NCBI GenBank assembly: GCA_964035575.1 | Contig: OZ037836.1 | Coordinates: 434,001-498,000 of the forward strand | Direction: 5' to 3' | DNA length: 64,000 bases | DNA from: Rhynchopus sp. YZ270_cl-10 | Lineage: Eukaryota | In this document: piece after piece, positions 274-43,753 of the stretch | Layout: each line of letters opens with the position of its first letter | Position numbering within the stretch: position 1 is the stretch's first letter | Made by a program: the position numbers and the translations under genes | The notes under the pieces: model-generated | Told to the model about the DNA's origin: nothing | Seen by the model: only the letters and a program-made list of their open reading frames with translations | The model's database searches: none

Positions 274-2202
274 TTATCGTGGGTAGTATCTAGATCCAGT
301 TCCAGGTGATTCCAGGTTTCTCAGATTTGTCTGGCTGTTGATCAGCTGGAGCTTTTGTAGATTATCCAACACGAAGGAGAGTGCCTCAACGCGGTCCTTG
401 TCATTTATTTTTGACTCAGTCCCAGCGGCGGTGACCGTATTCGCCTTCTTCGTGAAGACACGCTTGCTGAGAGGCGTGGTGCACGTTAGGTCCTTCGCCA
501 GCGACAAGCAGAACATGATGTCCTCACCCTGCTTTGTGGCGAGCTGCCACTTCTTCTTTTCCTTCCCATCTGCCAAGCTATCGGGCTGATACGCTGTCTC
601 CAACTCTGAAAGGGCCTGTGGGTCGGCCACGCGTAGGGGGTGCGGTGTGAAGAAGGCATTGCGGCACTTGTCGACGTCGTACAGGATAGCCTGCTCCAAG
701 TGGGCGCTCATGCAAAAGGGTTCCTTCGGGGGGTACTTCCTGTGGGCCCAGCGTGCAGGGGAGCCCGCGGGGCACTTTGCTTCGCTTAAGATGGGAAGCC
801 ATTTTTCCACCAGGCCCCACACGCCAGGAACTGTAATTTTGTCGCCCCACTTCAGCTTCCACGTCAGCTGCCACTTCGGCTTCGGCTTCAGCTTCAACTT
901 CGGCTTCAGCTTCAGCTCTGGCTTCAGCTTCAGCTTCAGCTTCAGCTCTGGCTTCAGCTTCAACTTCGGCTTCGGCTTCAGCTCCGGCTTCAGCTCTGGC
1001 TTCAGCTCTGGCTTCAGCTCTGGCTTCAGCTCTGGCTTCAGCTCTGGCTTCAGCTCTGGCTTCAGCTCTGGCTTCAGCTCTGGCTTCAGCTCTGGCTTCA
1101 GCTCTGGCTTCAGCTTCAACTTCGGCTTCGGCTTCAGCTTCAGCTCTCGCTTCAGCTCAGGCGTGCACTCTGCGAACTCCTCAACGTTGTCATCAACCTG
1201 AAGCGCGTAGCGCACCCCCATGGGCCAGCACACTTCCTCGACGAAAGCCTTCATCACCTCACGGACCATGGGGATGCCGCGGCCACCCCACGGCAGCCGC
1301 ACGAGCACGTGGCGCGCAGGTGGACGCGGAGGATGCAGTGCAGACTGTGGAGACTTCCGAATCTGCCCAATACGTGTTCTAAACGCATCAACCTCGCCAG
1401 GCTCGCAGAAGACGATGACGGGGTACGGACACAACCCGTCGTCGCACCAGAGGTTCGGTTTGAAGTTCTCGTGGCGGCGATGCAGCACGGAGGGCACGCA
1501 CACAACAACTTTGTCCTCAAATTGCGCCGTGGCCTTGGTGAGAAACTGATTCATCGTTGAGGGAACATAAAACTTGAAATGATCACGCTGCCAGATGTGC
1601 GAAGTCTCCACCAGAGGCACGCCGTCGCATGTACGGCAGTCGTTCACAACCTTCTCGCCGAACTTGTTCCCAGCGGAATCAACAGCAGGTGTCAGTTCCT
1701 TCTTCTCAAGTCCCTCACCCATGCACGGAACGTCATCACGAACACTCTCTGCGATCGCGCCCACCTGGGTGATGTCCGAGTCTGGGATGCCAAGACAATT
1801 CTCCCGGGTAACACTGGTGTCAGAGTGCATATGGTTCGGTGCCTGGCCCCTGGCGAGCTCAAGTAATTTTTTTTGATTTCGGGTCATTTTGCGGGGCTTC
1901 GTTCCCACGTCAAGACCTCTGAAACTCTCTGGTGTCATGTCGGTATCACCCAAGTCACGAAGAGCTGCAATGGCGTCGTCCTTCTGCGACTTCGTCTTCG
2001 TCAGCACAACTGTGTCCCCAGCACTCAGCTGCGTGATGTAGTCTCCTGCGGCCAGAACCTTCCCTCCCAAGCTCATGTCAAAGCCGTCTTCGCACAACTC
2101 TGCTGCAGACGCCACCTTCCGCCGTATGTCCGCAGTTGTATCATCCACACCCACCTCGACTGTGTACTTCTCTCTGTCTGAGCTTTCAACGCATATTTCC
2201 AT
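274..2202 (-). CDS. Ubl-domain protein fused to a putative GT-A glycosyltransferase (GREB1/TAGT/JGT-like), with an inserted KPEL low-complexity tract
   Basis: 642-aa ORF. The first ~85 aa are nearly identical to the N-terminus of the neighbouring Ubl-LRR genes. The C-terminal half has VVVCVPS...VIVFCEPGE...VLVRLPWGGRGIPMVRE...YALQVDDNV...QAILYD...GEDIMF, a motif order resembling TET/JBP-associated glycosyltransferases (recognised by eye). Confidence 0.7.
   Translation of the reverse strand: MEICVESSDREKYTVEVGVDDTTADIRRKVASAAELCEDGFDMSLGGKVLAAGDYITQLSAGDTVVLTKTKSQKDDAIAALRDLGDTDMTPESFRGLDVGTKPRKMTRNQKKLLELARGQAPNHMHSDTSVTRENCLGIPDSDITQVGAIAESVRDDVPCMGEGLEKKELTPAVDSAGNKFGEKVVNDCRTCDGVPLVETSHIWQRDHFKFYVPSTMNQFLTKATAQFEDKVVVCVPSVLHRRHENFKPNLWCDDGLCPYPVIVFCEPGEVDAFRTRIGQIRKSPQSALHPPRPPARHVLVRLPWGGRGIPMVREVMKAFVEEVCWPMGVRYALQVDDNVEEFAECTPELKRELKLKPKPKLKLKPELKPELKPELKPELKPELKPELKPELKPELKPELKPELKPELKPKPKLKLKPELKLKLKLKPELKLKPKLKLKPKPKWQLTWKLKWGDKITVPGVWGLVEKWLPILSEAKCPAGSPARWAHRKYPPKEPFCMSAHLEQAILYDVDKCRNAFFTPHPLRVADPQALSELETAYQPDSLADGKEKKKWQLATKQGEDIMFCLSLAKDLTCTTPLSKRVFTKKANTVTAAGTESKINDKDRVEALSFVLDNLQKLQLINSQTNLRNLESPGTGSRYYPR
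874..1158. repeat. Coding minisatellite, 12-bp unit CTTCAGCTCTGG with 6-bp variants, encoding (KPEL)n/(KL)n
   Basis: Directly visible tandem array inside ORF 274-2202. Confidence 0.95.
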
Positions 2203-4191: not shown

Positions 4192-5031
4192 TTACATGCA
4201 TACACATTTTCCCCTGAAGCTACGGCTTTTCACATATTCTGACACAACTCTGCTCGATCCTGCAACGTTGATGCTGCTATTACGTATTTTGCATCCTTTT
4301 AGGAAGCCTTTCTCAATGTTCTGCACACTCTCCCACCCGGATAAGTTAAGTGTTTTCAATGCACTGCAGTTGAAGAGGAAGGCCTCCCCAACCTGCGTCA
4401 CGTTGCTCCACCCAGTCATGTTAAGGGTTTGCAATGCTGGACAGTTGGCGAGGAAGAAGTCCTCTATTTGCGTCACATTTCTCCACCCAGATAAGTCGAC
4501 AGTGTGCAATGCGTTGCAGCTGTCCAGAAAGAAGCCCTCTATATGCGTCACATTGTACCACCCAGATAAATCAATAGTGTGCAATGCGTTGCAGTGGGCA
4601 AGAACGTGGCTGCTCACCCTAGTGACGCCTGTGGCACCACTGAGATCAAGTACCTCGAACGTGCCACCTTGCAAGTACCCGTAGAGGATCTCAGTAACAA
4701 CCTCCGCCTGCAGAAACAAATGAATCAGCTTGGGATCTGTCAGACCGTTGAACACCGGTGGCGTCAGCCATGTCTCACCCAAGTCACGAAGAGCTGCAAT
4801 GGCGTCGTCCTTCTGCGACTTCGTCTTCGTCAGCACAACTGTGTCCCCAGCACTCAGCTGTGTCGTGTCGTCTCCTTCGGCCAGCAGCTTCCCTCCGAAG
4901 CTCATGTCAAAGCCGTCTTCGCGCAACTCTGCTGCAGTCGCCACCTTCCGCCGTATGTCCGCAGTTGTATCATCCACACCCACCTCGACTGTGTACTTCT
5001 CTCCGTCAAAGCTCTTCACACATATTTCCAT
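4192..5031 (-). CDS. Ubl-LRR-CaaX protein, copy A (279 aa, 5 LRRs of 25 aa, ends RGKCVCM)
   Basis: ATG of MEICV at 5031. Ubl-like N-terminus; repeats LxTxDLSGWxNVTxIxxxFLxxC (BspA/LRR_5-like); C-terminal CaaX motif. Confidence 0.88.
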   Translation of the reverse strand: MEICVKSFDGEKYTVEVGVDDTTADIRRKVATAAELREDGFDMSFGGKLLAEGDDTTQLSAGDTVVLTKTKSQKDDAIAALRDLGETWLTPPVFNGLTDPKLIHLFLQAEVVTEILYGYLQGGTFEVLDLSGATGVTRVSSHVLAHCNALHTIDLSGWYNVTHIEGFFLDSCNALHTVDLSGWRNVTQIEDFFLANCPALQTLNMTGWSNVTQVGEAFLFNCSALKTLNLSGWESVQNIEKGFLKGCKIRNSSINVAGSSRVVSEYVKSRSFRGKCVCM

Positions 5032-6007
5032 GGTTTTGTGTCTCTCTGTTTTGTGCAAGGTGTTTTGGGGGTAAGAAGAAGAATCAAGCACAGGACACGT
5101 TGATCAGTCACGTCGCTCGACACTCCTGCTGATGCCCTTGCAACGTGAAGTGTGTTGCGTACTGGCTGTGTGTGTGTGGTGTGCAAGAGATAGAACAAAC
5201 AGTTACAAAAGGGAGAGGTCTTTTGTTTTTTTGAAAGCTTCGTTGTATTAGTGTGGACACCCAAGGATGTGCTCCACTATGTGTTCCTTTTCAACGTGGC
5301 CACCATTCTTTGGTTCACTTGCCCTGCTGAGGCAGAGTGGCTGTTCTTCAGTTTTGTATTTTCATGACTTTTCAGTTTCTCTATCCTCAGAGAGGACCTC
5401 TGCGATATGACGCGCAAACACGCCGTTTTCAATTTGATTCGCAGACCGATACTGACTCACGAAGTTGCTGTGTCAAAAAACACCTTCCTCTGCGAGGCGG
5501 GATACCACAGCGACAACGTCTATCACTCATGCGCCTATGAGTTGCTCAATGGCGTCATGGCTTTTATCATGACTACAGGGGTCCAACCCTGCACATTGTT
5601 CTCACAACACAAAATCTGAACAGACACAAATGAAGCGAGAAAAACAGAAATATTTACGCACACACTCTGTTGTCTAAACACGGGGGGTAAAAACAGCAAA
5701 ACAGAATATTTGTAGAGTGGCTGAAATGTTGAACACTGAAATACAAAGGTTTGGGTCTGAATAGCGTGGCTTCTTCTGGTGGTTGAAAATACTTATATTT
5801 CATTGCATTTTGAAACAATGTAAAATTCTTCTCGAAATTGTTCAAGATTGAACTGAGAGAAAGAAGAAACCCCAAACCCTCCCAGACCAAACGGTCTAAC
5901 ATGTTGTATTGATATAGTGTGGGGGTGAAGTGAGGAGCACGAGAATCGTCTTCGCGCTTTTCTTTAGTATTTTGTGACATATGCACACAAGTGCGGAACG
6001 TGCTGCC

Positions 6008-7195
6008 TCACATGCACACACATTTGCGCTTTGTCTTCTTGAGATCAGGCCTCTGCACGACGTCGCTTGCCTCATCGTCCATGAGGACACTGTGCACATG
6101 TTCTGACACAACACTGCTCGATCCGGTGATGTTGATGCTGCTTGGCCGCATCCTGCTTTCGTTAAGTGCTCCATTCCCAATGTGCTGCACACTAGCCCAC
6201 CCAGACAGGTCAAGTGTTCTCAACTCACGGCAGTTGGAGATGAACCAGTCTCCAATGCGTGTTACATTGCTCCACCCAGACAAGTTAAGACTGGTCAATG
6301 CGCTGCAGTTGGAGAGGAAGTAGTCATCAATACCGGCCACATCGTTCCACCCAGACAAGTCCAGTGTGGTCAATGAGGTGCAGTTGGAGAGGAAGTACCT
6401 CCCTATTTCCGTTACATTGATCCACCCAGATACATCAACGGTTCGCAATGCGCTGCAGTTGTAGAGAAAAGCGCACTGAATAAGCGTTACACTGTTCCAC
6501 CCAGAGATGTTAAGTGTCGTCAACGCGCTGCAGTTGTCGAGGAACGAATCCCCTATTTGCGATACACTGTTCCACCCAGATATATCAAGTGTGGTCAGAG
6601 ACCTGCAGTTGTAGAGGAACGAGTTCTCAATGCGCGGCACATGGTTCCACCCAGATAAATCAAGTGTTCGCAATCCGTTGCAGTTGAAGAGGAATGCATA
6701 CTCAATGTGCGTCACATTGCTCCACCCAGATAAATCAGCAGTGTGCAATGAGCTGCACTCGGAGAGGAAGTTGTCGCGTATTTTGGTCACACCTGTCACA
6801 CCACTGAGATCAAGTGCTTCGAACGTGCCACCTGACAAGAAGCCATTTGGGATCTCAGTAACAACTTCTGCCTGCAGAAACAAACGAATCAGCTTGGGAT
6901 CTGTCAGATCTTCGAACTTGTCTGGCGTCAGCCTTGTCTCACCCAAGTCACGAAGAGCTGCAATGGCGTCGTCCTTCTGCGACTTCGTCTTCGTCAGCAC
7001 AACTGTGTCCCCAGCACTCAGCTGCGTGATGTCGTCTCCTTCGGCCAGCAGCTTCCCTCCGAAGCTCATGTCAAAGCCGTCTTCGCGCAACTCTGCTGCA
7101 GACGCCACCTTCCGCCGTATGTCCGCAGTTGTATCATCCACACCCACATCGACTGTGTACTTCTCTCCGTCAAAGCTCTTCACACATATTTCCAT
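6008..7195 (-). CDS. Ubl-LRR-CaaX protein, copy B (395 aa, 9 LRRs, ends KKTKRKCVCM)
   Basis: Intact ORF with the same architecture as copy A. Confidence 0.9.
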   Translation of the reverse strand: MEICVKSFDGEKYTVDVGVDDTTADIRRKVASAAELREDGFDMSFGGKLLAEGDDITQLSAGDTVVLTKTKSQKDDAIAALRDLGETRLTPDKFEDLTDPKLIRLFLQAEVVTEIPNGFLSGGTFEALDLSGVTGVTKIRDNFLSECSSLHTADLSGWSNVTHIEYAFLFNCNGLRTLDLSGWNHVPRIENSFLYNCRSLTTLDISGWNSVSQIGDSFLDNCSALTTLNISGWNSVTLIQCAFLYNCSALRTVDVSGWINVTEIGRYFLSNCTSLTTLDLSGWNDVAGIDDYFLSNCSALTSLNLSGWSNVTRIGDWFISNCRELRTLDLSGWASVQHIGNGALNESRMRPSSINITGSSSVVSEHVHSVLMDDEASDVVQRPDLKKTKRKCVCM

Positions 7196-7829
7196 GGTTT
7201 TGTGTCTCTCTGTTTGAGGTGTTTTGGGGCAGGAAGAAGCAACAAAAACAGGGTACAGGTGTGTCTAGATACGTAGTACAGGTAGCACCCACTTTGACTT
7301 CGTCATGAAATTGAAACAACGCTGAAGATGAAATATCCACTAAGACGATATAGGTATGTGGCAACACTTCAGTTATCCTCTGCGATATGACGCGCACACC
7401 GTTTTCACTTTGATTCGCACACCGATACTCTGGAGGGAAACAGAAGCATTCTGCTCATGGTATACCAAGGGCTGTCAGTGGATCTGTTCCACAAAACGAA
7501 ACACCCCCTCCCACCCCTGCTCTACTTAGCCGCGAGTCGTTTGTTGATCGCATCCAGCACTTTTTTCAAACCCCAAAAGACGTCCTGCACCTTTTTACAG
7601 GACCTGCTGTACTGGGTGGATACCCCAACCATGCAGTCCTACGTCCATTTCGTGGTATACATCTGATATGAGAAAGACGGCAGTGGGTACAGGCAGCTAC
7701 GCGATGAGCTGAGGAAAAAGGGAGTCACGGTGGAGGTGGTGCACCTCTACGAGTCTGAGAGCCACCGTCATCAATGGCTCTGAAGGGGAAGGAGTCACGA
7801 GGGCGTCTGGATGCACGCACAGGAGAGGG

Positions 7830-8106
7830 CAGCGCTGGTGGACGCGGGGAGTTGGCACTGCACAAGAGACGACTTCTACCTCACGGCCCTCTTGGTAGAA
7901 AAAGCGACGGTGTCAGAGACAGCACTGAGGGGAGTCTTTCTGGACATAAAGAACTGCTTCGACTCCATCCCTTTGGACCATAACCTTCACACTCGTAGAG
8001 AAGATGGGGATGCCCCATGAAAAGCATGTATCTGGACCTGCAGAGACGCTTCAAGCTGTATGGTGCAGTCGGGGAGGAGTTCAAGGCGAAAAACGGCATA
8101 CTGCAC
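7830..8106 (+). pseudogene. Non-LTR retrotransposon reverse transcriptase remnant
   Basis: GVFLDIKNCFDSIP matches the RT D..kaFD motif. After a frameshift, MYLDLQRRFKLYGAVGEEFKAKNGIL matches the lead-in to the G..QG motif. Confidence 0.7.
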
Positions 8107-8372
8107 GTAATGCCCTTGCAACGTGAAGTGTGTTGCGTACTGGCTGTGTGTGTGTGTGTGTGGTGTGCAAGAGACAACAACAATTACAAAGGGGAGAGAG
8201 GTCTTTTGTTTTAAACATTTTGGACGCTTGGATGTATTAGTGTGGACACCCGAGGATGTGCATGTCCACTGCGCCTTGTTGTTACAATAAATGACAATTC
8301 GGAAAAACGGTTTTTCCGTGTAACATAGGGGGTGGGGAGCCTCAGTAGCACTGGGGAGGGGGGGGACCTCAG

Positions 8373-8964
8373 CAGTGCTGTAAGAATACGTAAGAATACG
8401 TTGATTTTCAGAATTGTGGATCCGTATCCCTTGTTTTCTGGATTACCCCCACCCCATACCCCACCCAACATAAGACAAAACTCGGTACAGAGCGTGTGGG
8501 AGAGACAGCTGCGGGGTCTTGTTTGCACGATGTTGCAGGGAGCTGGAGGACTGTGACTCTTGCTAAAACTTGCTGGACTGGGACTCTTGCTCGTACAGTG
8601 ACTCTCTCACTTCACCCTCTCTGTCCTGACTCACGCCCCTCTGCTCACGGTGCTCCCTGCACTACCCCAACTCCACCGGGGTACTAGCGACAAGTGCGCC
8701 ATACTTGTCTCGTGTCCGAAATCACTTACCTTGAAAAAGAAGACAGAGGGCCTCGAGGCGAGTACTTCGCTGCTGTTGCACAGTGAAGGTGGGAAGCATC
8801 CCAAAACAACAACGTAACACTAGCCGTACTGCGTGATGCTGGGTGAGTGTCGCTGGTTGTGAGGACTCCCCTGTACTTTTTGACCTTACGTATTCTTACG
8901 TATTATTAGTAAAAAAAAATGAAAAAGTGGATACGGATACGTATCCCGTATTCTTACAGCACTG
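8373..8964. mobile_element. Non-autonomous TIR element (MITE)
   Basis: Perfect 18-bp TIRs CAGTGCTGTAAGAATACG / CGTATTCTTACAGCACTG. No clear TSD. Confidence 0.7.
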
Positions 8965-9910
8965 CCCTAGAGGGGGGGGTCACCGGGAAAAATGGTTTAT
9001 TGTTACTTTGTGACATTAAAAGGAAAAACGAGCCTTCCCTTTTCAGTTTCTCTATCCTCTGCGATATGACGCGCAAACACGCCGTTTTCAATTTGATTCG
9101 CAGACCGATACTGACTCACGAAGTTGCTGTGTCAAAAACACCTTCCTCTCCACTGTATAGCGCGAAGCCTCCCAGACCAAACGGTCTAACATGTTGCATT
9201 GATATAGTGTGGGGGAGAAGTGAGGAGCACGAGAATCGTTTTCGTATTACAGTGAGACAACAAACAGCGGAGGGGTAAAAACCCCTCCTTAGAGTTTTGA
9301 AATACCAAAATCCACCTTAGGTTTTACCCCACCTATGTTCCGACGCCACCGGTGTTTTTACCAGTGGACATGATATTTTGGGTCAACATGGAAAATATGG
9401 GGAAATGAGGTGAGTGCACAATAAACATACTTGGACCGCCCGAAATATATTTCACGTTTTCACGTTTTTGGGCATCTCCTGAGCAACTACAGGCCCGAAA
9501 CACCCCGAGAATGACCCTGTGACCCGAAAATTCACAAAAATTCACCCTGAAATACGAAAAAATAGTGAAAACCCGGTTCATAGTGTGTTTTGGGTGGGAA
9601 TAAGCAAATGATAGTCAGAAACCCGTGATTTGGTGGTGATTCTCACGGGCCTCCAAAGTGCACTCAGGTGTACAAAAGTTTTCGATTATTGCTTATTTTG
9701 ACAGATTTGACATCAAATATTTCCAAATATAAAAAGCTTATTGCGAAAATGAGTAGAACCCTACCTAGTCGGTTTTCACTAAGGAAAAAGCGCCCAAATT
9801 CACCCGAAATCTGCATTTCGGGCAACTTCGGGCGTTTTCGGGCGCACAAAATCGCCCGAAATCCGCCCGAAATGCCCGAAATATATTTCGGGCGGTCCAA
9901 GTATGAATAA

Positions 9911-10020
9911 AGACACACACATTTGCACTTGGTATCGTCCACGAGGCCACCGCCATACTCATGCACACATTCTGACAGTGTGTACTTCTCTCCGTCAAAG
10001 CTCTCCACACATATTTCCAT
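9911..10020 (-). pseudogene. Internally deleted Ubl-LRR-CaaX copy
   Basis: MEICVESFDGEKYT is joined directly to SECVH..DDTKCKCVC. The family upstream region is intact at 10021-10420. Confidence 0.8.
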
Positions 10021-10530
10021 GGTTTCGTGTCTCTCTGTTTCGTGCAAGGTGTTTTGGGGGTAAGAAGAAGAATCAAGCACAGGACACATTGATCAGTCAA
10101 GTCGCTCGACACTCCTGCTAATGCCCTTGCAACGTGAAGTGTGTTGCGTACTGGCTGTGTGTGTGTGTGGTGTGCAAGAGACAACAAACAGTTACAAGGG
10201 GAGAGGTCTTTTGTTTTGAACATTTTGAAAGCTTGGATGTATTAGTGTGGACACCCGAGGATGTGCTCCACTATGTGTTCCTTGTGAACTTGGCACCATA
10301 CTTTTGTTATTTGCAAGACTTTTCAGTTTCTCTATCCTCTGCGATATGAAGCGCAAACACGCCGTTTTCAATTTGATTCGCAGACCGATACTGACTCACG
10401 AAGTTGCTGTGTCAAAAAACACCTTCATCTCCACTGTATAGCGCGAAGCCTCCCAGACCAAACGGTCTAACATGTTGCATTGATATAGTGTGGGGGAGAA
10501 GTGAGGAGCACGAGAATCGTTTTCGTATTA

Positions 10531-10633
10531 CAGTGAGACAACAAACAGCGGAGGGGTAAAAACCCCTCCTTAGAGTTTTGAAATACCAAAATCCACCTTA
10601 GTTTTTACCCCGCCGGTGTTTGTTGTCTTACTG
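10531..10633. mobile_element. Tc1/mariner-like MITE (~103 bp)
   Basis: TA|CAGTGAGACAACAAAC ... GTTTTGTTGTCTTACTG|TA. A partial copy lies at ~9250-9345. Confidence 0.65.
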
Positions 10634-11157
10634 TAACAAGAAAATTTCCTAACATATGTCACAAGTGTCATGTCTCCGAAATTGAAACCGCACCCTACTT
10701 TTCCTTTTTATGTTTTTCCCTCACCCCCGAAAACAATAAAGCAATAAAAACAATAAAGACAAAAGGGAGAGGTTGTGGTGAAACGCACACACCTCGACCT
10801 GTCGGTGAAATGTGGCTCTACTCAAACCCGCCCCGGATTAGAAAAATGGAAAAAAGGATGGGAGTAGGGTACGGTGTTCAATTTCCTTTTAGCATTGCAT
10901 GGATTCATAAAAAAACAAAAAGACATTCGAATCATGTCCCACCACAAAGCATTTGTCTTCATTTAGTATAAAACGACAACATGCTTGGTTGTATCAGTGT
11001 ACGCACGCGAAAATGCAAAGAACTGTGCATAAAACAGAAACATCTCCAGTTTCATATTTTTAGGGGCAAAGTGCAACGTGCAATGTAACATTCGTTCTCT
11101 GAACATCGCAATGAGCGCCTAGCCTCTCGAAAGATGCATTGCAATGGACGTGCTGTC

Positions 11158-12258
11158 TCACATGCACACACATTTGCGCTTTGTCTTCTGCACGACGTCG
11201 CTTGTCTCATCGTCCATGAGGATACGGCTGTGCACATGTTCTGACACAACACTGCTCGATCCGGTGATGTTGATGCTGCTTGTGGGTATTTCGCATCCAT
11301 ACAGGAAGCTTGGCCCAATGTGCTGAACGGTCGTCCACCCAGATAAGTCAAGTGTTTTCAATGCGCTGCAGTTGATGAGAAAAGAGTTCCCAAGCTGCGT
11401 CACATTGTTCCACCCAGACACATCCAGTGTTGTCAATGAGATGCAGTTGGAGAGAAAGGACTCATCAACCCGCATCACATTACTCCACCCAGTCATGTTA
11501 AGGGTTTGCAATGCTACGCAGTACGAGAGAAAGGACTTTCCCAGCTGCGTCACATTATTCCACCCAGAAATATCCAGTGTGGTCAATGAGATGCAGTTGG
11601 AGAGAAAGTAGTTATCAACCCGCGTCACATTGTTCCACCCAGATAAGTCAATGGTTTGCAACGCAGTGCAGCTGTAGAGAAAGTAGTCCCCTGTTTGCGT
11701 TACCTTGTTCCACCCAGATAAGTCAAGGGTTTGCAATGCAGAGCAGCTGGCGAGGACGGAACCCTTCAGGAGTGTAACATTGCTCCACCCAGATAGATCA
11801 GCAGTGTGCAGTGCGGTGCAGCTTTGGAGGAAACCTCCTTCTATTTGAGTCACACCTGGCACACCACTGAGATCAAGTTCTTCGAACGTGCCACCGTCCA
11901 AGAATCTAGAGGGGATCTCAGTAACAGCTTCTGCCTGCAGAAACAAATGAATCAGCTTGGGATCCGCCAGACCTGCGAACTTCTCTCGCGTCAGCCTTGT
12001 CTCACCCAAGTCACGAAGAGCTGCAATGGCGTCGTCCTTCTGCGACTTCATCTTCGTCAGCACAACTGTGTCCCCAGCACTCAGCTGCGTGATGTAGTCT
12101 CCTGCGGCCAGGAGCTTCTCTCCTAAGCTCATGTCAAAGCCGTCTTCGCACAACTCTGCTGCAGACGCCACCTTCCGCCGTATGTCCGCAGTTGTATCAT
12201 CCACACCCACCTCGACTGTGTACTTCTCTCCGTCAAAGCTCTCCACACATATTTCCAT
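11158..12258 (-). CDS. Ubl-LRR-CaaX protein, copy C (366 aa, 8 LRRs, ends KTKRKCVCM)
   Basis: ATG of MEICV at 12258; intact ORF. Confidence 0.9.
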   Translation of the reverse strand: MEICVESFDGEKYTVEVGVDDTTADIRRKVASAAELCEDGFDMSLGEKLLAAGDYITQLSAGDTVVLTKMKSQKDDAIAALRDLGETRLTREKFAGLADPKLIHLFLQAEAVTEIPSRFLDGGTFEELDLSGVPGVTQIEGGFLQSCTALHTADLSGWSNVTLLKGSVLASCSALQTLDLSGWNKVTQTGDYFLYSCTALQTIDLSGWNNVTRVDNYFLSNCISLTTLDISGWNNVTQLGKSFLSYCVALQTLNMTGWSNVMRVDESFLSNCISLTTLDVSGWNNVTQLGNSFLINCSALKTLDLSGWTTVQHIGPSFLYGCEIPTSSINITGSSSVVSEHVHSRILMDDETSDVVQKTKRKCVCM

Positions 12259-12759: not shown

Positions 12760-13120
12760 CTCAATTCCGGAAACAAATACGGGGGAAGCGAAGTCTTCCA
12801 ACTCCTCCGCCCTCCGTTTTCTCTTGAACCTGTGACGCTTGTCGCTGAGAAACAGGACAACAGCGTGTTCAAGAATATTCCCCATCTCTTCGGTATTAAA
12901 CTCGGGTGCCTGTTCATGAAGAATCATCAGCTTCTCAATAGTGCTGTGAGAATGGCGGTGGCGTCTCTTTGCGTAGATGTGGTCCAGGAGAGAGAATCCT
13001 CGTTCAACAACAACAACGAAGACGGGAGTGCAACGACCACAGCCTCCAAAACCCGTGCGAGAGTATCCCATTTTCCGACTTGCAATGTTCAAGAGCAAGA
13101 AGACTTCGAGAAAACTGCGT
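12760..13120 (-). pseudogene. hAT transposase C-terminal dimerization domain remnant
   Basis: TPVFVVVVERGFSLLDHIYAKRRHRHSHSTIEKLMIL resembles the hAT P.s...ER.FS....i....R..l....le.L motif. Related segments at ~20715-20880 and ~27375-27540. Confidence 0.65.
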
Positions 13121-13931
13121 TCTGGCGAAGCCACGGTACGCAACATTTCAAAAAATTGCGCTTAAAAATGCACTTTGTTTTACAGCCAAGCTATGTCATG
13201 GGGAGGGTGGAATGCAAGCTTGCGCCGCAGGCGCACGGTACGCTACTTTTTTATTGCAGACAACAACGCAGTGTAACGCAGCGTAGCGCAGTGCAACGGA
13301 GTGGTTGTTAGGAAATAATACAAACCGTAAGGATCGGTCCTTTTTGGAATCGAAGGATGAAAATTGTGTGTTTAAATTCGATAGTCCCGTATTTGTTTCT
13401 CTCTCCCTTTCTCCCCAACCTCTGCTCCCCGACTCCAATTCAACCAACACTCACAGACGGGGCCAAAACGAACTCTGCGGAGGGTGTTCAAATTTCCCGT
13501 TTTTCCCTTTTCTCCCGTTTTTCCCTTTGTCTTTGCCATTTTTTTTTCCAAAAAAAAAAAAATTTTTTTTTTTTGACAAGGCAATTTTCAGGTGAAAAAA
13601 AATTTTTTTTTTCGAAAAATTTTTGGCCCCCTGGGGTGGGTCTTGGGGCACCGAAAAATGCCAAAAAACGCAAAAATCGGGTGTTTTGAGCATCTGTGGT
13701 TACACCATATACACGTCTCTGTACAAGCCTATACTATACCCAAAAGTGGCTAGGCAAGGCCGTGTTTGACCAAAAAAAAAAATTTTTTTTTTCAAAAAAA
13801 CCGAGTTTTCGTCACCTGTGGGTGGTCGTAGGATCGAAATTTGCGAAAATTTTTCACTTTTTTTTTTTGACCCAAAAAATTTTTTTTCGACAAGGCAACG
13901 GGAAAAATGACTAAGGGGAAAGGGGAAAAAA

Positions 13932-14119
13932 GGGAAAAACGGGAATTTGGAGGATCCCCTATTTTGAGGATCATTTTTTACAGTCACATTTTACCTTAGC
14001 AAAATCCGAAAAAAAAAATTTTTTTTTCGAAAAATTTTTGGCCCCCTGGGGTGGGTCTGGGGGCACCGAAAAATGCAAAAAAACGCAAAAATCGGGTGTT
14101 TTGAGCATCTGTGGTTACA
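13932..14119 (+). repeat. Left copy of the 188-bp direct repeat (putative TSD) flanking the retrotransposon
   Basis: Identical by eye to 18414-18601. Confidence 0.9.
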
Positions 14120-17100
14120 TCTAGCGGTGTGGTATCTGGATGACGGGACGCTGATGGGGTCTCCTCAAGGGGTCGCGGCTGCGTTCAAAGTGCTTCAGGA
14201 GGAGAGCCTGAGTTTGGGGCTGTCGGTGAACTCCAAAAAGTGCGAACTTATTCCCCTTGGGCTCTACCAACCAGACAGCTTCCTTAATGAGGCGGGATTT
14301 ACAGTGTCAGACCTGACGGTGATCCGGGACGGATTCAGCTTTCTGGGGGCCCCCATCGGCACCAATGAGTTCTGCGACAAGTTCATGGAGAAGAAGCTGC
14401 ACGAGTTTGCGTTGAATCTCCGCTTGCTGGGCAAGCTAGGAGACGCCCAGGTGGCCTTGTCTCTCCTGCGCCATTGTGAAGGCTTCTGCAAAGCGGTCTT
14501 CTACATGCGCGCTGTACGTCACCAAGGGGAGCACCTCTGGTTGAAGAAGTATGACAAGGAGGTGGACCGAGTGCTCGCGCAGATTCTGAGCTCGCCGGGG
14601 ACAGATCCCGACATATTGCTGCCGGACGCTGCCAGATTGCAGGCTGCCCTCCCCGTGCGCATGGGTGGCTTGGGGGTGCGCCGGTCGTACGACCACTGGA
14701 CGGCTGCCGCTATGGGAGCTGCTAGTGGCACCTACGCTCTGTGTAAGCACCTTGACAAGCACTATCGTTGGGATGCGGCGGGGTGGAGCCACACGGCCAC
14801 CAGGTACAACGAGTTGGTGGACGCCGATGCCCGCGTGGACACTGAAGAGCTTCCCCAGCAGATCCTCAAGCAGCGAGACCTCTCTGCCTCGATCATCGTG
14901 CGTCAGGTGGCCAATCTGCGTGATGAAGGTGACGTGCAAGACCGTGCCCGACTGAACTCGCTCCTGCTGCCCTTGGCCGGGGCGTGGATTACGGCATTAC
15001 CCCTCCCGGAGAATGTCATCAACCCCGAGGAGTTTCGAGCCGTGGTCCGCCTCAGACTGGGTCTTGTGGTGCACAGGGACAAATCACGATGCGAGCAATG
15101 TGGCCAGCCCATGGATGAATTCGGGGTACACGCCCTCAACTGCAAGCACGGGGGTTGCACGATTCGCAGACACAACCGGGTTCGAGATCTGGTGGGCATG
15201 TTGGGATCGAAGGCAGGCCTCGCTCCGGCCCTGGAACCAAAGCACATCGTCCTCGGAGGCACCAAACCGGCGGACATTTTCTTCTCCATCGGTATCGGTG
15301 ACGGCAGGCCTAGAGCGGTGGACTGCACGATCTGGAACCCTCTCGCCGCTTCTCATGTTCAGGAGGCGGCCCGAGCAGTGGGGCACGCAGCGGTCAAAGC
15401 TCAGTCGAAGAAACGGGGTAAACATGGTGACGCTTGCAGGAAGGCCCACATTTCCTTCTCAGCCTTTGCAGCCGAGGTCTTTGGGGGGCTAGGACCGGAG
15501 GCGGCTACACTGTGGCGACATTTGAACAAGATGGCGGCGGAGCGCGCGGATGGAGACAAGGTTCTGGCCTCGGTCAAGTGGAACGAACGCCTGGCTGTGG
15601 GTCTCCAACGGGAGGTGGGTGCCACGTTGCTGAAGAGGGGCGCTCTGTGCTTCAGCCTCGGGAACTCACGGGAGGCTTTGCCGGAAAAACTTGTTCCCCT
15701 CTCAAAAGACTACTACGCCCCGCCTGACACCCCTGATGACCGGTTCCCTTCCTACGTGGATGATCACCTGTACCGCTTAGCTGAAAACGATTGCGAAATC
15801 GTCGAGGAGCCCGCAGCCCCTGATCCCCCTTACGATGTTGATGAGGCCACAGTAGCAATGGAGGTGTGGTTACAGCGGCAGGCTGGCAAAGAGACCACCC
15901 ACCAGTCTTCTCTAGAAGTGACTCACGCTCCCTGTGATGACCCTGCAGCGGCCTTCCAGGCACAGTGTGCGTGCGACCCTCCTCCTGCTCTTGCGACGCA
16001 GCTGTCTGCCCTTGGATGCTCCGTCCCCGGGGACTTCCGCTACACTGTGGGTGACTGCTGCTTTGACGCTGTGGCGTACCAGTGCGAGAGGGACGCGGGG
16101 TCCTTGAGACTGTCTGCGATTGCACAGGTAGTCCAAGATGAGGACTTAGCGGCGCGTGCAGAGCCAAATGTCGCAGTATGGGCGAGTCGGATGCGCATCG
16201 CTGGGAGTCCGCGCCCGGACACCTGGGCTGACATGGTGACGGTTAACAGTCTTGCACGCGTTCTACATTCGGTTGTGGTGGTGTTCGTCGGTGGGCAACG
16301 GCCCACGGTCTTCACCCCCTCAGGCACTGTGGGCTACCGTCACGTGCTTGCGCTGGCCCACGACGGTCACGTAGCGGGCCACTTCACACCGGTCACCATC
16401 CCCGAGAAGCTGACGCAGTACCTCCTGATGCAAGAGCCGAACCCGCGCCTGCCGTCGCTCACATGTGTGTCTCGCGAGGCTCTGCTGGACTATCCTCAGG
16501 ACGAAACGAGGGCGGATTTCGGGCGATGCGAGTTGTGCTTGGCTGCTGTTCTTGGCAGTGAACGCCACTGGCAGTGTCGGGAGTGCGTGGGGTGGGCGTG
16601 CCTGTCGTGTCTTCCCCTAGGTTCAACTTGCCCTCGTGCCCTACCGGTCGCCAGCAACCCGCGCTCTGTGAAGAAGACGGAGCGCACGGTGACGACGGAC
16701 CCCAAGAGCAACAGCCTGGTGAAGGATCAGAAACAAGTCCGGGTGGCTAAGAGCACGGAGGCTGCGAAGATGAGGAGGGCACAGCTACACGACACCATGA
16801 GACAGGCACCATCGGACGTCAAGGGACAGGAGAGCGGCTACTCTACCACACAATCAGCCCTCCCTGCCGCCTCCGCGCCCTCGGTGCCCCACGTCGCGCA
16901 CGCTGTTCCCCAGCCTAACACCTCGCAAGCGCCCTCTGCTTCAGACGAGCCTCAGCAACATCAGACACCTACGGCGAGTGGCTACTCCAACACCAATTCA
17001 GCCCTCCCGTGCCCGAGCAATGTGATTTTCTGGAACGACTTGGCGCCCTGCCCTGGGTACAACAGGCCGATCCCAGCGACCCCAGAGGAGTGGCGGGTTT

Positions 17101-18377
17101 TGTTCTACCCCGTTGCCACTCACGCCGATCCCGAGGGCGCGTCTATGTCAGCTGCTAACGCTCTAGTGTGCTTCACTCGTTGGTGGGAGGCAATGAAGCC
17201 GAGTTTGAGTGGGGGGGACCAGCAGTGGGCTTCGATGCTTGGCGGCCGGCTCCGTAACCTTGCGAAGTCCGAAGCAGAGAGTGGCTACTCTAACACAGCA
17301 CCAGCCCTCCCTACTTCGTGTGCGCCCCACGTAGAGCAGACCCCTGTCCAACCTGGCACCTCGTCGCAGTCGCTTGCTGGATCGGCCGCGTCTCAGCAGC
17401 ATCAGGCACATACGGAGAGTGGCTATTCCAACACCCACTCAGCCCTCCCCGTACCCGCGCCTGTTGCAGCAGCTCCCTCAACCTCCAACACGAGAGTGCA
17501 GCCCCACGCTGTTCCGCCAACCGCTTCATCGCAGGTGCAGCCCACCAGGACACATACGGGGAGTGGCTATTCAAACACCACCCCAGCCCCCCCCGTATTC
17601 ACGTCCTCTGAGGCAGCTCACTCCCGCGCTGACACGAGTGAACAGCCACACGACGCCTCGCAAGGCAGTGCGTACTCCGCGGACCTCCTCGACAGGTCCC
17701 AACCCGCAGTTCCTTTGCCAGGCGCATCATCGGTCCCCAGCACAGACACAACATCGGAGAGTGGCTCCCAATCCGCACCACCAGCCCTCCCGAACTCTGT
17801 GCCGGTATGGAATGACATAGCGCCCTGCCCCGGGTTTGACTTGCCTACTCCAGAGACGGCCGAAGAGTGGGAGGGACTGTTCTATCCCAATACCACTCAT
17901 TTCAGCTCCCAAGGTGGGTACGGACTGACGGCAGCGGAGGCTTTCGAGTACTGTGGGCGGTGGAGGAATGCAGTGAAGCCGATGTTGAACCAGTGGGAGC
18001 TGAAGAAGTCGGCGGAGCTGTACAATCGCCTGCGGAGCCTTGTGCAGACGCGTCGTCGAAACGCCACATAGACACTAGAGTCACCATTTTTCTACTTTTC
18101 CTTTTTCGTTTCCCCCCCCCTCCCCCTTTTATAGACTAGAGTGTACAGCCAGGCCTGGCTAGACGTCGTTAACAGCTTTGAACCAAGGAGGTTCATCGTG
18201 TCGTCAGCCACGCCCCTAAACCAACAAAAGACTACAAACAAAAACAAACTTACAAGAGGCCGCCCCGTACCCCCTCCAGGCAAATAAAAAAGTAAAAGAA
18301 TGCCCTTCCTCAGTCCGGAAGTATCGCCTCAACCGGTCACCTGCCGTAAAAGAGAGAGAGGTTACAGAAAAAGCATG

Positions 18378-28861: not shown

Positions 28862-30950
28862 CTCCACTATGTGTTCCTTTTGAACGTGGCCACCATTCTT
28901 TGGTTCACTTGCCCTGCTGAGGCAGAGTGGCTGTTCTTCAGTTTTGTATTTTCATGACTTTTCAGTTTCTCTATCCTCTGCGATATGACGCGCAAACACG
29001 CCGTTTTCAATTTGATTCGCAGACCGATACTGACTCACGAAGTTGCTGTGTCAAAAAAACACCTTCCTCTGCGAGGCGGGATACCACAGCGACAACGTCT
29101 ATCACTCATGCGCCTATGAGTTGCTCAATGGCGTCATGGCTTTTATCATGACTACAGGGGTCCAACCCTGCACATTGCTCTCACAACCAAAATATGAACA
29201 GACACAAATGAAGCGGGGAAAACAGAATTTGCACACACATTCTGTTGATTCTAACACGGGGGTAAAAACAGCAAAAGAGAATATTTGTAGAGCGGCTGAA
29301 ATGTTGAACACTGAAATACAAAGGTTTGGGTCTGAATAGCGTGGCTTCTTCTGGTGGTTGAAAATACTTATATTTCATTTCATTTTGAAACAATGTAAAA
29401 TTCTTCTCGAAATTGTTCAAGATTGAACTGAGAGAAAGAAGAAACCCCAAACCCTCCCAGACCAAACGGTCTAACATGTTGTATTGATATAGTGTGGGGG
29501 TGAAGTGAGGAGCACAAGAATCGTCTTCGCGCTTTTCTTTAGTATTTTGTGACATATGCACACAAGTGCGGAACGTGCTGCCTCACATGCACACACATTT
29601 GCGCTTTGTCTTCTTGAGATCAGGCCTCTGCACGACGTCGCTTGCCTCATCGTCCATGAGGACACTGTGCACATGTTCTGACACAACACTGCTCGATCCG
29701 GTGATGTTGATGCTGCTTGGCCGCATCCTGCTTTCGTTAAGTGCTCCATTCCCAATGTGCTGCACACTAGCCCACCCAGACAGGTCAAGTGTTCTCAACT
29801 CACGGCAGTTGGAGATGAACCAGTCTCCAATGCGTGTTACATTGCTCCACCCAGACAAGTTAAGACTGGTCAATGCGCTGCAGTTGGAGAGGAAGTAGTC
29901 ATCAATACCGGCCACATCGTTCCACCCAGACAAGTCCAGTGTGGTCAATGAGGTGCAGTTGGAGAGGAAGTACCTCCCTATTTCCGTTACATTGATCCAC
30001 CCAGATACATCAACGGTTCGCAATGCGCTGCAGTTGTAGAGAAAAGCGCACTGAATAAGCGTTACACTGTTCCACCCAGAGATGTTAAGTGTCGTCAACG
30101 CGCTGCAGTTGTCGAGGAACGAATCCCCTATTTGCGATACACTGTTCCACCCAGATATATCAAGTGTGGTCAGAGACCTGCAGTTGTAGAGGAACGAGTT
30201 CTCAATGCGCGGCACATGGTTCCACCCAGATAAATCAAGTGTTCGCAATCCCTTGCAGTTGAAGAGGAAAGCATACTCAATGTGCGTCACATTGCTCCAC
30301 CCAGATAAATCAGCAGTGTGCAATGAGCTGCACTCGGAGAGGAAGTTGTCGCGTATTTTGGTCACACCTGTCACACCACTGAGATCAAGTGCTTCGAACG
30401 TGCCACCTGACAAGAAGCCATTTGGGATCTCAGTAACAACCTCTGCCTGCAGAAACAAACGAATCAGCTTGGGATCTGTCAGATCTTCGAACTTGTCTGT
30501 CGTCAGCCTTGTCTCACCCAAGTCACGAAGAGCTGCAATGGCGTCGTCCTTCTGCGACTTCGTCTTCGTCAGCACAACTGTGTCCCCAGCACTTCAGCTG
30601 CGTGATGTAGTCTCCTGCGGCCAGCAGCTTCCCTCCGAAGCTCATGTCAAAGCCGTCTTCGCACAACTCTGCTGCAGACGCCACCTTCCGCCGTATGTCC
30701 GCAGTTGTATCATCCACACCCACCTCGACTGTGTACTTCTCTCCGTCAAAGCTCTCCACACATATTTCCATGGTTTTGTGTCTCTCTGTTTTGTGCAAGG
30801 TGTTTTGGGGGTAAGAAGAAGAATCAAGCACAGGACACGTTGGTCAGTCAAGTCGCTCGACACTCCTGCTAATGCTCTTGCAACGTGAAGTGTGTTGCGT
30901 ACTGGCTGTGTGTGTGTGTGGTGTGCAAGAGACAACAAACAGTTACAAGG
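28862..30950 (+). repeat. Segmental duplication of 5272-~7200 plus the family upstream region
   Basis: Near-identical to copy B and its downstream intergenic DNA. Confidence 0.9.
29583..30771 (-). pseudogene. Ubl-LRR-CaaX copy D with a +1 frameshift (or a sequencing error)
   Basis: Extra T at 30593/30594 (GCACTTCAGCTG versus GCACTCAGCTG in the paralogs) splits the ORF. The LRR region is almost identical to copy B. Confidence 0.8.
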
Positions 30951-31799: not shown

Positions 31800-33105
31800 T
31801 CATGCAGCCTGGTCGTACATCTTCCTCATGACCGGGTGGCAGGTCCTCTCCAGCTTCCTCTGGGAGGACTGGAACTCCTCCTTGGTGGCCTCAGTGCCGC
31901 AGAGCTCGAGGGCACCGTTGCAGGCGTCCATGACCTTCTTCTTGTCGTCGTCGCCGACAAGCCCGCCGGTTCTGTCGTCCATGAGGGTGGTGACCATCTG
32001 GTAGGCGTAGGTCTCGAGCTCGTGTCTGGCGTCGACACGCTCGCGTGCCTGCTTGTCGGCCTCAGCGAACTTCTCTGCGTCGTTGCACATGTCGTCAATC
32101 TCCTTCTGGGACAGACGGCCCTTGTCGTTGGTGATGGTGACCTGCGACTTCTTCCCGGTCGACTTGTCCTCGGCAGACACGTCCATGATGCCGTTCGCGT
32201 CGACGTCAAAGGTCACCTCAATCTGGGGCACGCCACGCGGGGCCGGCGGGATCCCGGTCAGGTCGAAGGTGCCGAGCTGGTGGCAGTCCTTCGTCATCGC
32301 CCGCTCCCCCTCGAACACACAGATGTTCACCACAGGCTGGTTGTCCGCACACGTCGAGAACTCCTGGCTCTTCTTCGTCGGGATCGTCGTGTTCCTCTTG
32401 ATCAGCGGTGTCATCACACCCCCGTCCGTCTCAATCCCCACAGTCAGCGGCGTCACGTCCAGCAGCAGGATCTGCTCCGTCTGCGTGCTCTTTCCCCCCG
32501 TCAGCACAAAGGCCTGCACCGCAGCACCAAAGGCAACAGCCTCGTCGGGGTTGATCGACTTGTTCAGGTCCTTTCCGCCGAAGAAGTCCGACACCATCGC
32601 CTGGATCTTCGGGATACGGGTCGATCCTCCGACCAGCACAACCTCCGTGATGGCCCGCTTCTCAATCTTCGAGTCGTTCAGCACAGACTCCACAGGGCGC
32701 AGGCACGACTTGAACAGGTCCGCGCACAGCTCCTCGAACTTCGCACGTGTGATCGACGAGTAGAAGTCCGTCCCCTCAAACAGCGAGTCGATCTCAATGC
32801 TGGTCTGTGCCGCCGACGACAGCGCACGCTTGGCACGCTCACAGGCAGTGCGCAGACGGCGCAGCGCACGCTGGTTCGTCGTCAGGTCCTTCTTGTGCTT
32901 CTTCTTGAACTCCTCCACGAAGTGGTTCACCATCCGGTTGTCGAAGTCCTCGCCTCCCAAGTGGGTGTCTCCCGCAGTCGCCTTCACCTCGAAGATCCCC
33001 CCGTCAATCGCCAGAAGCGTCACATCGAAGGTACCGCCACCCAGGTCGAAGATCAGGATGTTCTTCTGCCCCGCGCTCGCGTTGTCGAGTCCGTAGGCAA
33101 TCGCC

Positions 33106-33137
<32 letters not shown>

Positions 33138-33644
33138 GTCCATCCCCGAGATCGCCCCTGCGTCCTTCGTCGCCTGACGCTGCGAGTCGTTGAAGTACGC
33201 AGGCACAGTCACAACGCTCTTCTTCACCTCCTTCCCAAGGAACTGCTCCGCCGTCTCCTTCATCTTCACAAGGATCATCGCAGAGATCTCCTCAGGCCTG
33301 AACGTCTTCGTCGTCCCCATGAACGACACCTCAATCAGCGGCTTCCCGTCCTCCTTCGCCACAACCTTGAACGGCCAGTGCTTCATGTCGCTCTGCACAG
33401 ACGAGTCCTCCAGCTTGCGCCCGATCAGACGCTTCGCGTCGAACACCGTGTTCGTCGGGTTCATCGCCACCTGGTTCTTCGCCGCATCTCCGATCAGACG
33501 CTCGCTGTCTGCGAACGCCACGTACGACGGCGTCGTCCGGTTCCCCTGGTTGTTCGCAATGATCTCCACACGCTCGTTCTGCCACACTCCCACACACGAG
33601 TAGGTCGTTCCCAAGTCAATACCGATGGCTCCGTCGTAGGACAT
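31800..33644 (-). CDS. HSP70: Cytosolic-type HSP70 (614 aa), lacking the C-terminal EEVD
   Basis: [30 protein letters not shown] and [12 protein letters not shown] motifs. ATG at 33644; ends MYDQAA*. Confidence 0.97.
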
Positions 33645-43214: not shown

Positions 43215-43246
<32 letters not shown>

Positions 43247-43753
43247 GTCCATCCCCGAGATCGCCCCTGCGTCCTTCGTCGCCTGACGCTGCGAGTCGTT
43301 GAAGTACGCAGGCACAGTCACAACGCTCTTCTTCACCTCCTTCCCAAGGAACTGCTCCGCCGTCTCCTTCATCTTCACAAGGATCATCGCAGAGATCTCC
43401 TCAGGCCTGAACGTCTTCGTCGTCCCCATGAACGACACCTCAATCAGCGGCTTCCCGTCCTCCTTCGCCACAACCTTGAACGGCCAGTGCTTCATGTCGC
43501 TCTGCACAGACGAGTCCTCCAGCTTGCGCCCGATCAGACGCTTCGCGTCGAACACCGTGTTCGTCGGGTTCATCGCCACCTGGTTCTTCGCCGCATCTCC
43601 GATCAGACGCTCGCTGTCTGCGAACGCCACGTACGACGGCGTCGTCCGGTTCCCCTGGTTGTTCGCAATGATCTCCACACGCTCGTTCTGCCACACTCCC
43701 ACACACGAGTAGGTCGTTCCCAAGTCAATACCGATGGCTCCGTCGTAGGACAT
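41909..43753 (-). CDS. HSP70: HSP70 second copy (614 aa), protein identical to the first
   Basis: Same translation as the first copy. The duplication extends ~250 bp upstream; stop is TAG rather than TGA. Confidence 0.97.

What the first reader, a model, noticed from the sequence alone, without database searches (positions are those of the whole stretch)
4192..12258. Diversifying array of Ubl-LRR-CaaX proteins: constant Ubl head, variable LRR body, prenylation tail
Seen: copies A, B and C have nearly identical Ubl heads but 5, 9 and 8 LRRs. The non-consensus LRR positions differ strongly, and all end in a polybasic stretch plus CVCM. Established: polybasic+CaaX (X=M) directs farnesylation and cytosolic-face membrane anchoring; BspA-type LRRs with CaaX occur in Entamoeba; Ubl domains often recruit proteasome or ubiquitin machinery. 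Inference: a family of membrane-tethered variable sensors or adaptors, possibly an intracellular immune-like or degradation system. I do not know this architecture as a described family.
Basis: partly seen in the sequence, partly recalled or inferred. Interest (0 to 1): 0.8.

Follow-up and report, generated by a model that had tools for sequence, protein, structure and literature searches.

The report
Variable LRR repertoire with ubiquitin-like heads
These three genes belong to a family of about two hundred look-alike proteins, apparently from one single-celled eukaryote, that join a shared ubiquitin-like head to a highly variable repeat body and a tail predicted to send them to membranes or the nucleus, so they likely act as a repertoire of intracellular binders feeding one common machine, though their targets and expression are untested.

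Summary
In detail: three intronless minus-strand genes (279, 395, 366 aa) carry a ubiquitin-fold head, 5/9/8 repeats of 25 aa of the TpLRR/BspA class, and a CVCM end. They belong to a large family: 220 head-bearing proteins were recovered, all those checked from ENA only and apparently one assembly. Of these, 81 end CVCM-like, 22 end in an NLS-like tail, and three lineages add B-box plus coiled coil.

- The near-identical heads partly reflect DNA homogenisation (head dS 0.02-0.05 against 0.27-0.71 just downstream).
- The head lacks ubiquitin's Ile44 patch and di-Gly, so proteasome docking is not supported.
- Variable positions evolve at omega about 1.1-1.4, not significantly above 1, while the framework is strongly conserved (0.07).

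Variation is confined to one stripe (repeat positions 15, 18, 19, 22, 23, 25), aromatic-rich at 19 and 22 and predicted to face the concave side. The best reading is a birth-and-death family of compartment-addressed variable adaptors. An immune role is plausible but unshown, and no RNA data were found. New variant of a known kind.

The parts
4192..5031 (-). Copy A, 279 aa: Ubl 4822-5031, three-helix linker 4702-4821, half repeat plus 5 LRRs 4288-4701, cap and tail, CVCM 4195-4206
6008..7195 (-). Copy B, 395 aa: Ubl 6986-7195, linker 6866-6985, half repeat plus 9 LRRs 6152-6865, CVCM 6011-6022
11158..12258 (-). Copy C, 366 aa: Ubl 12049-12258, linker 11929-12048, half repeat plus 8 LRRs 11290-11928, CVCM 11161-11172
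9900..10220 (-). Collapsed copy: family 5' flank and first 14 codons joined directly to a family-type tail; probable pseudogene by internal deletion
   Evidence: its tail resembles those of P0028 and P0040
29583..30771 (-). Copy E: 5' flank like A, C and the collapsed copy, head closest to C and D, body differing from B at 4 bases; 1-base frameshift near 30593 (real or assembly error, not settled)
   Evidence: contig depth over the shared B/E body about twice single copy
274..2202 (-). Gene D, 642 aa: same head (residues 1-97, 83.5% identical to B) on an unrelated non-LRR body with a KPEL-type repeat, no CaaX
5032..5227 (-). Shared 5' flank of A, also upstream of C, E and the collapsed copy (pyrimidine tract and AG before the ATG)
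8014..8121 (+). Reverse-transcriptase fragment in the B-C spacer
   Evidence: tblastn, 50% identity, E=2e-5
9426..9905 (.). MITE-like element with 28-nt perfect inverted ends, next to the collapsed copy

Best explanation
A, B and C are members of a recently expanded, recombining family of BspA/TpLRR repeat proteins that likely work as variable intracellular adaptors: the repeat body is predicted to bind a different target in each copy, the CVCM tail would be farnesylated and hold it on cytosolic membranes (an NLS-like tail would send sister clades to the nucleus), and the shared acidic ubiquitin-like head would hand bound targets to one common host partner. Shown: the folds, the family size, the tail classes, purifying selection on the framework, a single variable stripe, head homogenisation, and chimeric and collapsed copies. 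Inferred: prenylation, that the stripe is the binding face, that the partner belongs to the ubiquitin, proteasome or p97 system (if so, not through an Ile44 patch), and that the targets are foreign (prey, symbiont or viral) proteins.
For: Head: ubiquitin fold, rmsd 1.4 A over 70-71 residues, Z 12.7; 21 invariant columns across 23 heads as divergent as 53-59%. Body: the top five structural matches are all TpLRR/BspA-type solenoids (Z 14.0-16.8). Framework omega is 0.065-0.075 and stripe omega 1.1-1.4. 295 distinct stripe words occur among 301 distinct repeats, the same stripe positions vary in every tail class, and Phe/Tyr/Trp make up 25-30% at positions 19 and 22 against 7% or less at the ten other variable positions scored. 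TpLRR strands lie on the convex side (passage in PMC13117327), and here the main strand (positions 4-6) is the near-invariant part, so the stripe would face the concave side. Cys stands at -4 in 93 of 168, and 22 of 220 have NLS-like tails. B-box plus coiled-coil versions exist. Turnover: A3 and C5 are 85% identical against about 70% for most repeat pairs, and chimeric E and the collapsed copy are present.
Against: Stripe omega is not significantly above 1 (twice delta lnL 0.3-2.3), and relaxed plus positive selection among paralogous repeats is a general pattern (abstract of PMC5120217). Head dN is about equal to dS among A, B and C, with a sharp boundary near codon 90, so near-identity does not by itself show a shared partner. 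Ubiquitin Ile44 aligns to Ser/Gly/Arg and there is no di-Gly. Many members are truncated or fused to mobile-element ORFs, and 102 of 220 fall in no tail class.
Confidence: 0.5

Rival explanations
1. Drift-driven birth-and-death family. A few members have a housekeeping role, and copy number, repeat number and stripe diversity come from unequal crossover, gene conversion and relaxed constraint in a repeat-rich region, with selection only on folding.
For: Stripe omega is compatible with 1. The head is homogenised at silent sites. Pseudogene-like copies, MITE-like elements and an RT fragment lie in the spacers. Duplicated 5' gene ends are described as common in a diplonemid genome (passage in PMC10161547).
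Against: CaaX and NLS-like tails are kept across clades. Stripe positions 19 and 22 are aromatic-rich. Omega 0.5 is rejected for the stripe, while the other variable class sits at about 0.6. The head is conserved between deep clades.
Confidence: 0.27
2. Entamoeba-like BspA adhesins or prey and signal receptors at the plasma membrane or feeding apparatus, with the Ubl as a folding or turnover module rather than a docking site.
For: CaaX-bearing Entamoeba BspA proteins were found at the cell surface (passages in PMC2843621 and PMC5349171). The LRR class is the same. A few members end in hydrophobic, possibly transmembrane stretches (P0167, P0265).
Against: A, B and C start directly with the Ubl and show no signal-like stretch. 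Prenylation anchors to cytosol-facing membranes (established; also stated in PMC5349171). NLS-like sister clades point to intracellular work.
Confidence: 0.13
3. Genes derived from or carried by a giant virus, endogenous viral element or transposon.
For: Ubiquitin plus DUF285 repeat clusters exist in the ESM Atlas, one labelled viral (scores 0.79-0.85, leads only). DUF285 genes move between an alga and its virus (passage in bioRxiv 10.1101/2024.10.30.620910). The head is fused to RT and OTU ORFs in P0227 and P0245.
Against: No relative of the head was confirmed in viral contigs (0 of 76 pattern matches). No viral structure covers both domains (best query TM 0.41 among 50 listed). Host Hsp70 genes lie in the same window.
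Confidence: 0.07

Closest known systems
Entamoeba BspA-like family (111-116 genes in E. histolytica, 1,320 in E. moshkovskii; some with CaaX)
   Same: TpLRR/BspA repeats, large lineage-specific expansion in a protist, C-terminal CaaX in part of the family (passages).
   Different: No ubiquitin-like head appeared in the passages read; a 25-aa repeat here; NLS-like and B-box sister clades here.
Trichomonas vaginalis BspA-like family
   Same: Vast, divergent TpLRR family with subfamily-specific C-termini (PMC2843621 passages).
   Different: That paper states none has a C-terminal CAAX box, and 'ubiquitin' does not occur in its main text.
FNIP/FGxxFN repeat repertoires (giant viruses, slime moulds), some F-box fused
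   Same: Large variable LRR repertoires proposed to recognise many ligands, some tied to the ubiquitin-proteasome pathway (PMC9525666 passages).
   Different: Different repeat class (21-22 aa); F-box or kinase rather than a Ubl head.
F-box + repeat + CaaX adaptors (Legionella AnkB; FBXL2 and FBXL20 recalled)
   Same: Same layout: constant adaptor head, repeat target-binding body, lipid-anchor tail; AnkB variants even swap the localisation tail (PMC7542358 passages).
   Different: The head here is a Ubl plus three helices, with no F-box hit; those are single genes, not a repertoire.
UBL shuttle factors (Rad23, Dsk2, Ddi1/2) and membrane-anchored ubiquitin-fold proteins MUB/UBL3 (roles recalled)
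   Same: N-terminal integral Ubl (Z 10.7-12.1 to the Dsk2, Ddi2 and Rad23 UBLs); MUBs combine a Ubl with a CaaX.
   Different: No Ile44 patch, no recognised UBA, and an LRR body; MUBs have no body.
Unnamed ubiquitin + DUF285 clusters (ESM Atlas)
   Same: Ubl joined to a bacterial-type repeat.
   Different: DUF285 rather than LRR_5; scores under 0.9; relationship and tails not tested.

Membership tests
TpLRR/BspA-like LRR class | Pfam LRR_5 above cut-off and an xxIgxxF-xxC type repeat | tested here: met
TpLRR/BspA-like LRR class | Helix-free solenoid matching solved TpLRR structures | tested here: met
   (4fs7, 4h09, 6mlx, 4cp6, 4fdw; Z 14.0-16.8, rmsd 2.3-3.4 A, 154-178 aligned)
TpLRR/BspA-like LRR class | Flipped curvature placing the irregular segment on the concave side | not testable with these tools
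Entamoeba BspA-CaaX family | C-terminal CaaX on a BspA-type body | tested here: met
Entamoeba BspA-CaaX family | Common descent with Entamoeba BspA; surface location | not tested
   No Entamoeba sequences were compared; all listed hits had source ENA and no name
Integral ubiquitin-like (type II UBL) domain | Beta-grasp fold without cleavable di-Gly | tested here: met
Rad23/Dsk2-type proteasome shuttles | Hydrophobic Ile44-equivalent patch | tested here: not met
   Ile44 aligns to position 44: Ser 85%, Arg 9% in 81 CaaX heads; Ser 53%, Gly 36% in 53 others
Rad23/Dsk2-type proteasome shuttles | UBA domain | tested here: inconclusive
   The three-helix linker 73-108 had no UBA hit in Pfam and was barely tested in the fold search
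F-box/LRR SCF receptors (FBXL type) | F-box motif | tested here: not met
   No F-box among 21 families matched by 23 heads at E up to 5, nor
Farnesylated CaaX proteins | Actual prenylation and membrane binding | not testable with these tools
   Motif only
Diversifying immune receptor repertoires (NLR, VLR, TRIM-like) | Significant positive selection at the binding face | tested here: inconclusive
   omega 1.13-1.37, not significantly above 1, on 16 repeats of three genes
Diversifying immune receptor repertoires (NLR, VLR, TRIM-like) | Recognition of foreign ligands and a defence output | not testable with these tools
   none

The most novel reading that the evidence does not exclude
A free-living flagellate has built an intracellular immune repertoire from a bacterial-type LRR: hundreds of recombining binders addressed to membranes (CaaX), nucleus (NLS) or higher-order assemblies (B-box plus coiled coil, TRIM-like), all plugged by one homogenised ubiquitin-like head into a shared destruction pathway for viral, symbiont or prey proteins.
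Probability: 0.25. Interest if true: 0.85.

Novelty: new variant of a known kind. Interest (0 to 1): 0.56.

Why it matters
How free-living protists recognise intracellular invaders is largely open. A repertoire of some two hundred binders with a defined variable stripe, swappable address tails and one common head gives a direct test: find the head's partner and the targets of a few bodies. Even without an immune role, it extends BspA expansions beyond Entamoeba and Trichomonas, and it shows a constant-head, variable-body design arising through gene conversion.

Tried and rejected
No whole genome is held, so there is no DNA-level census or genome-wide dN/dS.

Expression: no RNA holder was listed. 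The four runs laid are contigs of unrecorded kind and say nothing on expression. Whether E's frameshift is real could not be settled.

Relatives elsewhere: none confirmed in viral contigs (0 of 76 pattern matches) or JGI metagenome contigs (0 of 454). No Rfam match in the window. Four look-ups of earlier findings returned nothing.

Protein-level search for pairs with the same start and a different end, or the reverse, found none among 60 CVCM-clade proteins. Distances between segments correlated only weakly (0.06-0.49), which fits recombination but does not prove it.

Star-tree codon fits were unstable and the last one crashed; they are not used. One search's estimate of 1.00 had not moved from its start value and is replaced. 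DGR-like adenine-directed mutagenesis was considered; codons vary at all three positions, so it was dropped.

The three-helix linker could not be assigned. The careful tree did not finish; the quick tree was used. No complex prediction was run.

Literature: (diplonemid or Diplonema with LRR terms) found 0 papers, and searches listed none whose title or abstract start describes this architecture. The library lacks most subscription journals, and the TpLRR review could not be read. For PMC10161547 only the first places per term in the supplements were seen, and bioRxiv supplements were closed, so a mention there is not excluded.
Full report
Observation. The window holds three uninterrupted minus-strand ORFs: A 4192-5031, B 6008-7195 and C 11158-12258. 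Each has a Pfam ubiquitin match at residues 3-68 (below cut-off in C) and LRR_5 repeats. The repeats number 5, 9 and 8 at exact 25-residue spacing, and each protein ends in CVCM after 4-6 basic residues. The window also holds copy E (29583-30771, frameshifted), a collapsed copy near 9900-10020 in which 14 head codons join a tail, and gene D (274-2202) with the same head on an unrelated body. Contig depth over the B/E body is about 215-235 against 93-120 on unique stretches in run X1, consistent with E being a real second copy (depth is only a rough guide). The host is a eukaryote: the window's Hsp70 best matches eukaryotic cytosolic Hsp70 structures. That it is a euglenozoan, perhaps a diplonemid, is my recalled impression from the Hsp70 start and gene style and was not tested.

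Anatomy. AlphaFold2 with 73 sequences (mean pLDDT 88.2) gives a beta-grasp at residues 2-69, three helices at 73-108, a helix-free solenoid with two short strands per repeat, a capping helix and a low-confidence tail. The head superposes on ubiquitin at 1.4 A over 70-71 residues. It has no di-Gly, is acidic (net charge -7 to -9), and carries Ser, Gly or Arg where ubiquitin has Ile44. It is therefore an integral Ubl, but not of the Rad23/Dsk2 docking type. The body's five best structural matches are TpLRR/BspA-type proteins (Z 14.0-16.8; sequence matches). The linker is unassigned.

Family. A search with B gave 922 hits among 7,999 candidates scored. The 120 listed are unnamed ENA proteins (one is copy A itself), and 47 of them, counted by hand, lie on a contig of 2,160,207 bases, the length of the contig holding the window's genes. 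Head-only searches gave 98 and 101 hits, again ENA only. A head profile against 1.84 billion representatives gave 988 hits, of which I saw the top 150; those with many short matches I took to be polyubiquitins. Ten divergent hits checked were ENA only, nine on long contigs and one on a 976-base contig that may come from another organism. That the family comes from one assembly is an inference from recurring contig lengths. Of 292 stored proteins, 222 carry the head. After dropping two duplicates of window copies, 81 of 220 end CVCM-like, 22 end in an NLS-like basic pair, 15 end in another Cys-xxx, and 102 fit no class, many of them truncated (crude patterns, with a few false calls in the last two named classes). 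In a quick tree of 166 members, 79 CVCM proteins and 11 others form one supported group (SH-aLRT 97) that includes A, B and C, while NLS-like and other CaaX tails lie in separate groups. P0203 and P0265 add a Pfam B-box, and P0238 a similar Cys/His region, followed by what reads as a coiled coil before the head.

Why the head is constant. Over codons 1-72, dS among A, B and C is 0.02-0.05 and dN 0.02-0.06, whereas over codons 113-149 dS is 0.27-0.71 (Fisher p 2e-5 to 0.007, pairs not independent). The change comes near codon 90. Silent sites are thus homogenised, which points to gene conversion or head swapping rather than selection alone. E has an A/C-type 5' flank on a B body. Between deep clades the head is still conserved (53-59% identity, 21 invariant columns), so purifying selection acts too.

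Where the body varies. In 300 repeats, positions 2, 6, 8, 9, 10, 13, 20, 21 and 24 are nearly fixed, and 15, 18, 19, 22, 23 and 25 carry 2.7-3.7 bits. The same stripe varies in all tail classes, and 295 stripe words are distinct among 301 repeats. Phe/Tyr/Trp make up 25-30% at positions 19 and 22. The conserved positions include the main strand (4-6). In this LRR class strands lie on the convex side (passage in PMC13117327; the original review could not be read), so the stripe would lie on the concave, usually ligand-binding side. This is an inference without coordinates. A codon model on the 16 internal repeats of A, B and C, with classes set from 295 repeats of other members, gives omega 0.065-0.075 for the framework, 0.60-0.66 for intermediate sites and 1.13-1.37 for the stripe. 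An omega of 0.5 is rejected for the stripe but 1 is not. The proteins are maintained as folded solenoids; adaptive diversification is neither shown nor excluded, and such patterns are general among paralogous repeats (abstract of PMC5120217).

Mechanism. I favour variable intracellular adaptors (0.5): body binds target, tail sets compartment, head docks on a shared partner. Farnesylation of a CaaX ending in Met is established knowledge, but it is untested here; the second membrane signal varies between basic residues and an upstream Cys. A ubiquitin-system partner and foreign targets are inferences. Rivals are drift with fold-only selection (0.27), Entamoeba-like surface or feeding receptors (0.13), and viral or mobile origin (0.07). 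No RNA run was listed, so expression is open.

Comparison. BspA expansions with CaaX are known in Entamoeba, and without CaaX in Trichomonas (passages of PMC8136499, PMC2843621, PMC5349171, PMC13592706). Variable FNIP repertoires, some F-box fused, are known from giant viruses and slime moulds (passages of PMC9525666). The head-repeat-CaaX layout is known from AnkB (passages of PMC7542358) and, as recalled, FBXL2. Ubl plus DUF285 clusters exist unnamed in the ESM Atlas (leads under 0.9). The Diplonema papillatum genome paper has no main-text mention of LRR, ubiquitin or CaaX, and the supplement places seen show no such family. Ten searches listed no paper describing Ubl-TpLRR-CaaX/NLS proteins, within a library lacking most subscription journals.

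Verdict. Real, larger and more modular than reported. It is a new variant of the known protist BspA expansion, with an unproven immune reading. Interest 0.56.

Noticed in passing
window 274-2202 (-): Gene D joins the family head to a body with a weak TET-associated glycosyltransferase match (Pfam TAGT, E=0.17), split by a KPEL-type repeat that is shorter in short-read contigs. A lead only.
   Followed up: partly
P0203, P0238, P0265 (also P0209, P0274): B-box and coiled-coil-like region placed before the Ubl-LRR chassis, TRIM-like in layout; P0265 ends in a hydrophobic stretch and P0238 in GFGG repeats.
   Followed up: partly
head-only proteins: Of 33 ORFs that leave the head profile early, 15 break at residues 71-74 and 9 at 93-94, with the same downstream peptide in different clades: possibly introns or a site-preferring mobile element.
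   Followed up: no
P0227, P0245: Family head fused in frame to a reverse transcriptase ORF and to an OTU-containing ORF.
   Followed up: no
window 13968-18071 (+): Long ORF with a YLDD motif and Cys/His motifs that I recall as typical of CRE/SLACS-type retrotransposons; no Pfam or PHROG hit.
   Followed up: partly
window 31800-33644 and 41909-43753 (-): Two Hsp70 genes, 99.75% identical over 2030 bases, 614 aa, ending without the usual EEVD.
   Followed up: no
window 37786-40689 (-): 967-aa protein with an N-terminal hydrophobic stretch and no Pfam hit; its 3' end recurs at 63359-64000.
   Followed up: no
window 9426-9905, 8381-8908, 10520-10644: MITE-like elements with inverted ends of 28, 21 and 44 nt in the spacers.
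   Followed up: no
window 13119-13252: A repeat of about 130 bases, present at least six more times in the window and at very high contig depth; no Rfam match.
   Followed up: no
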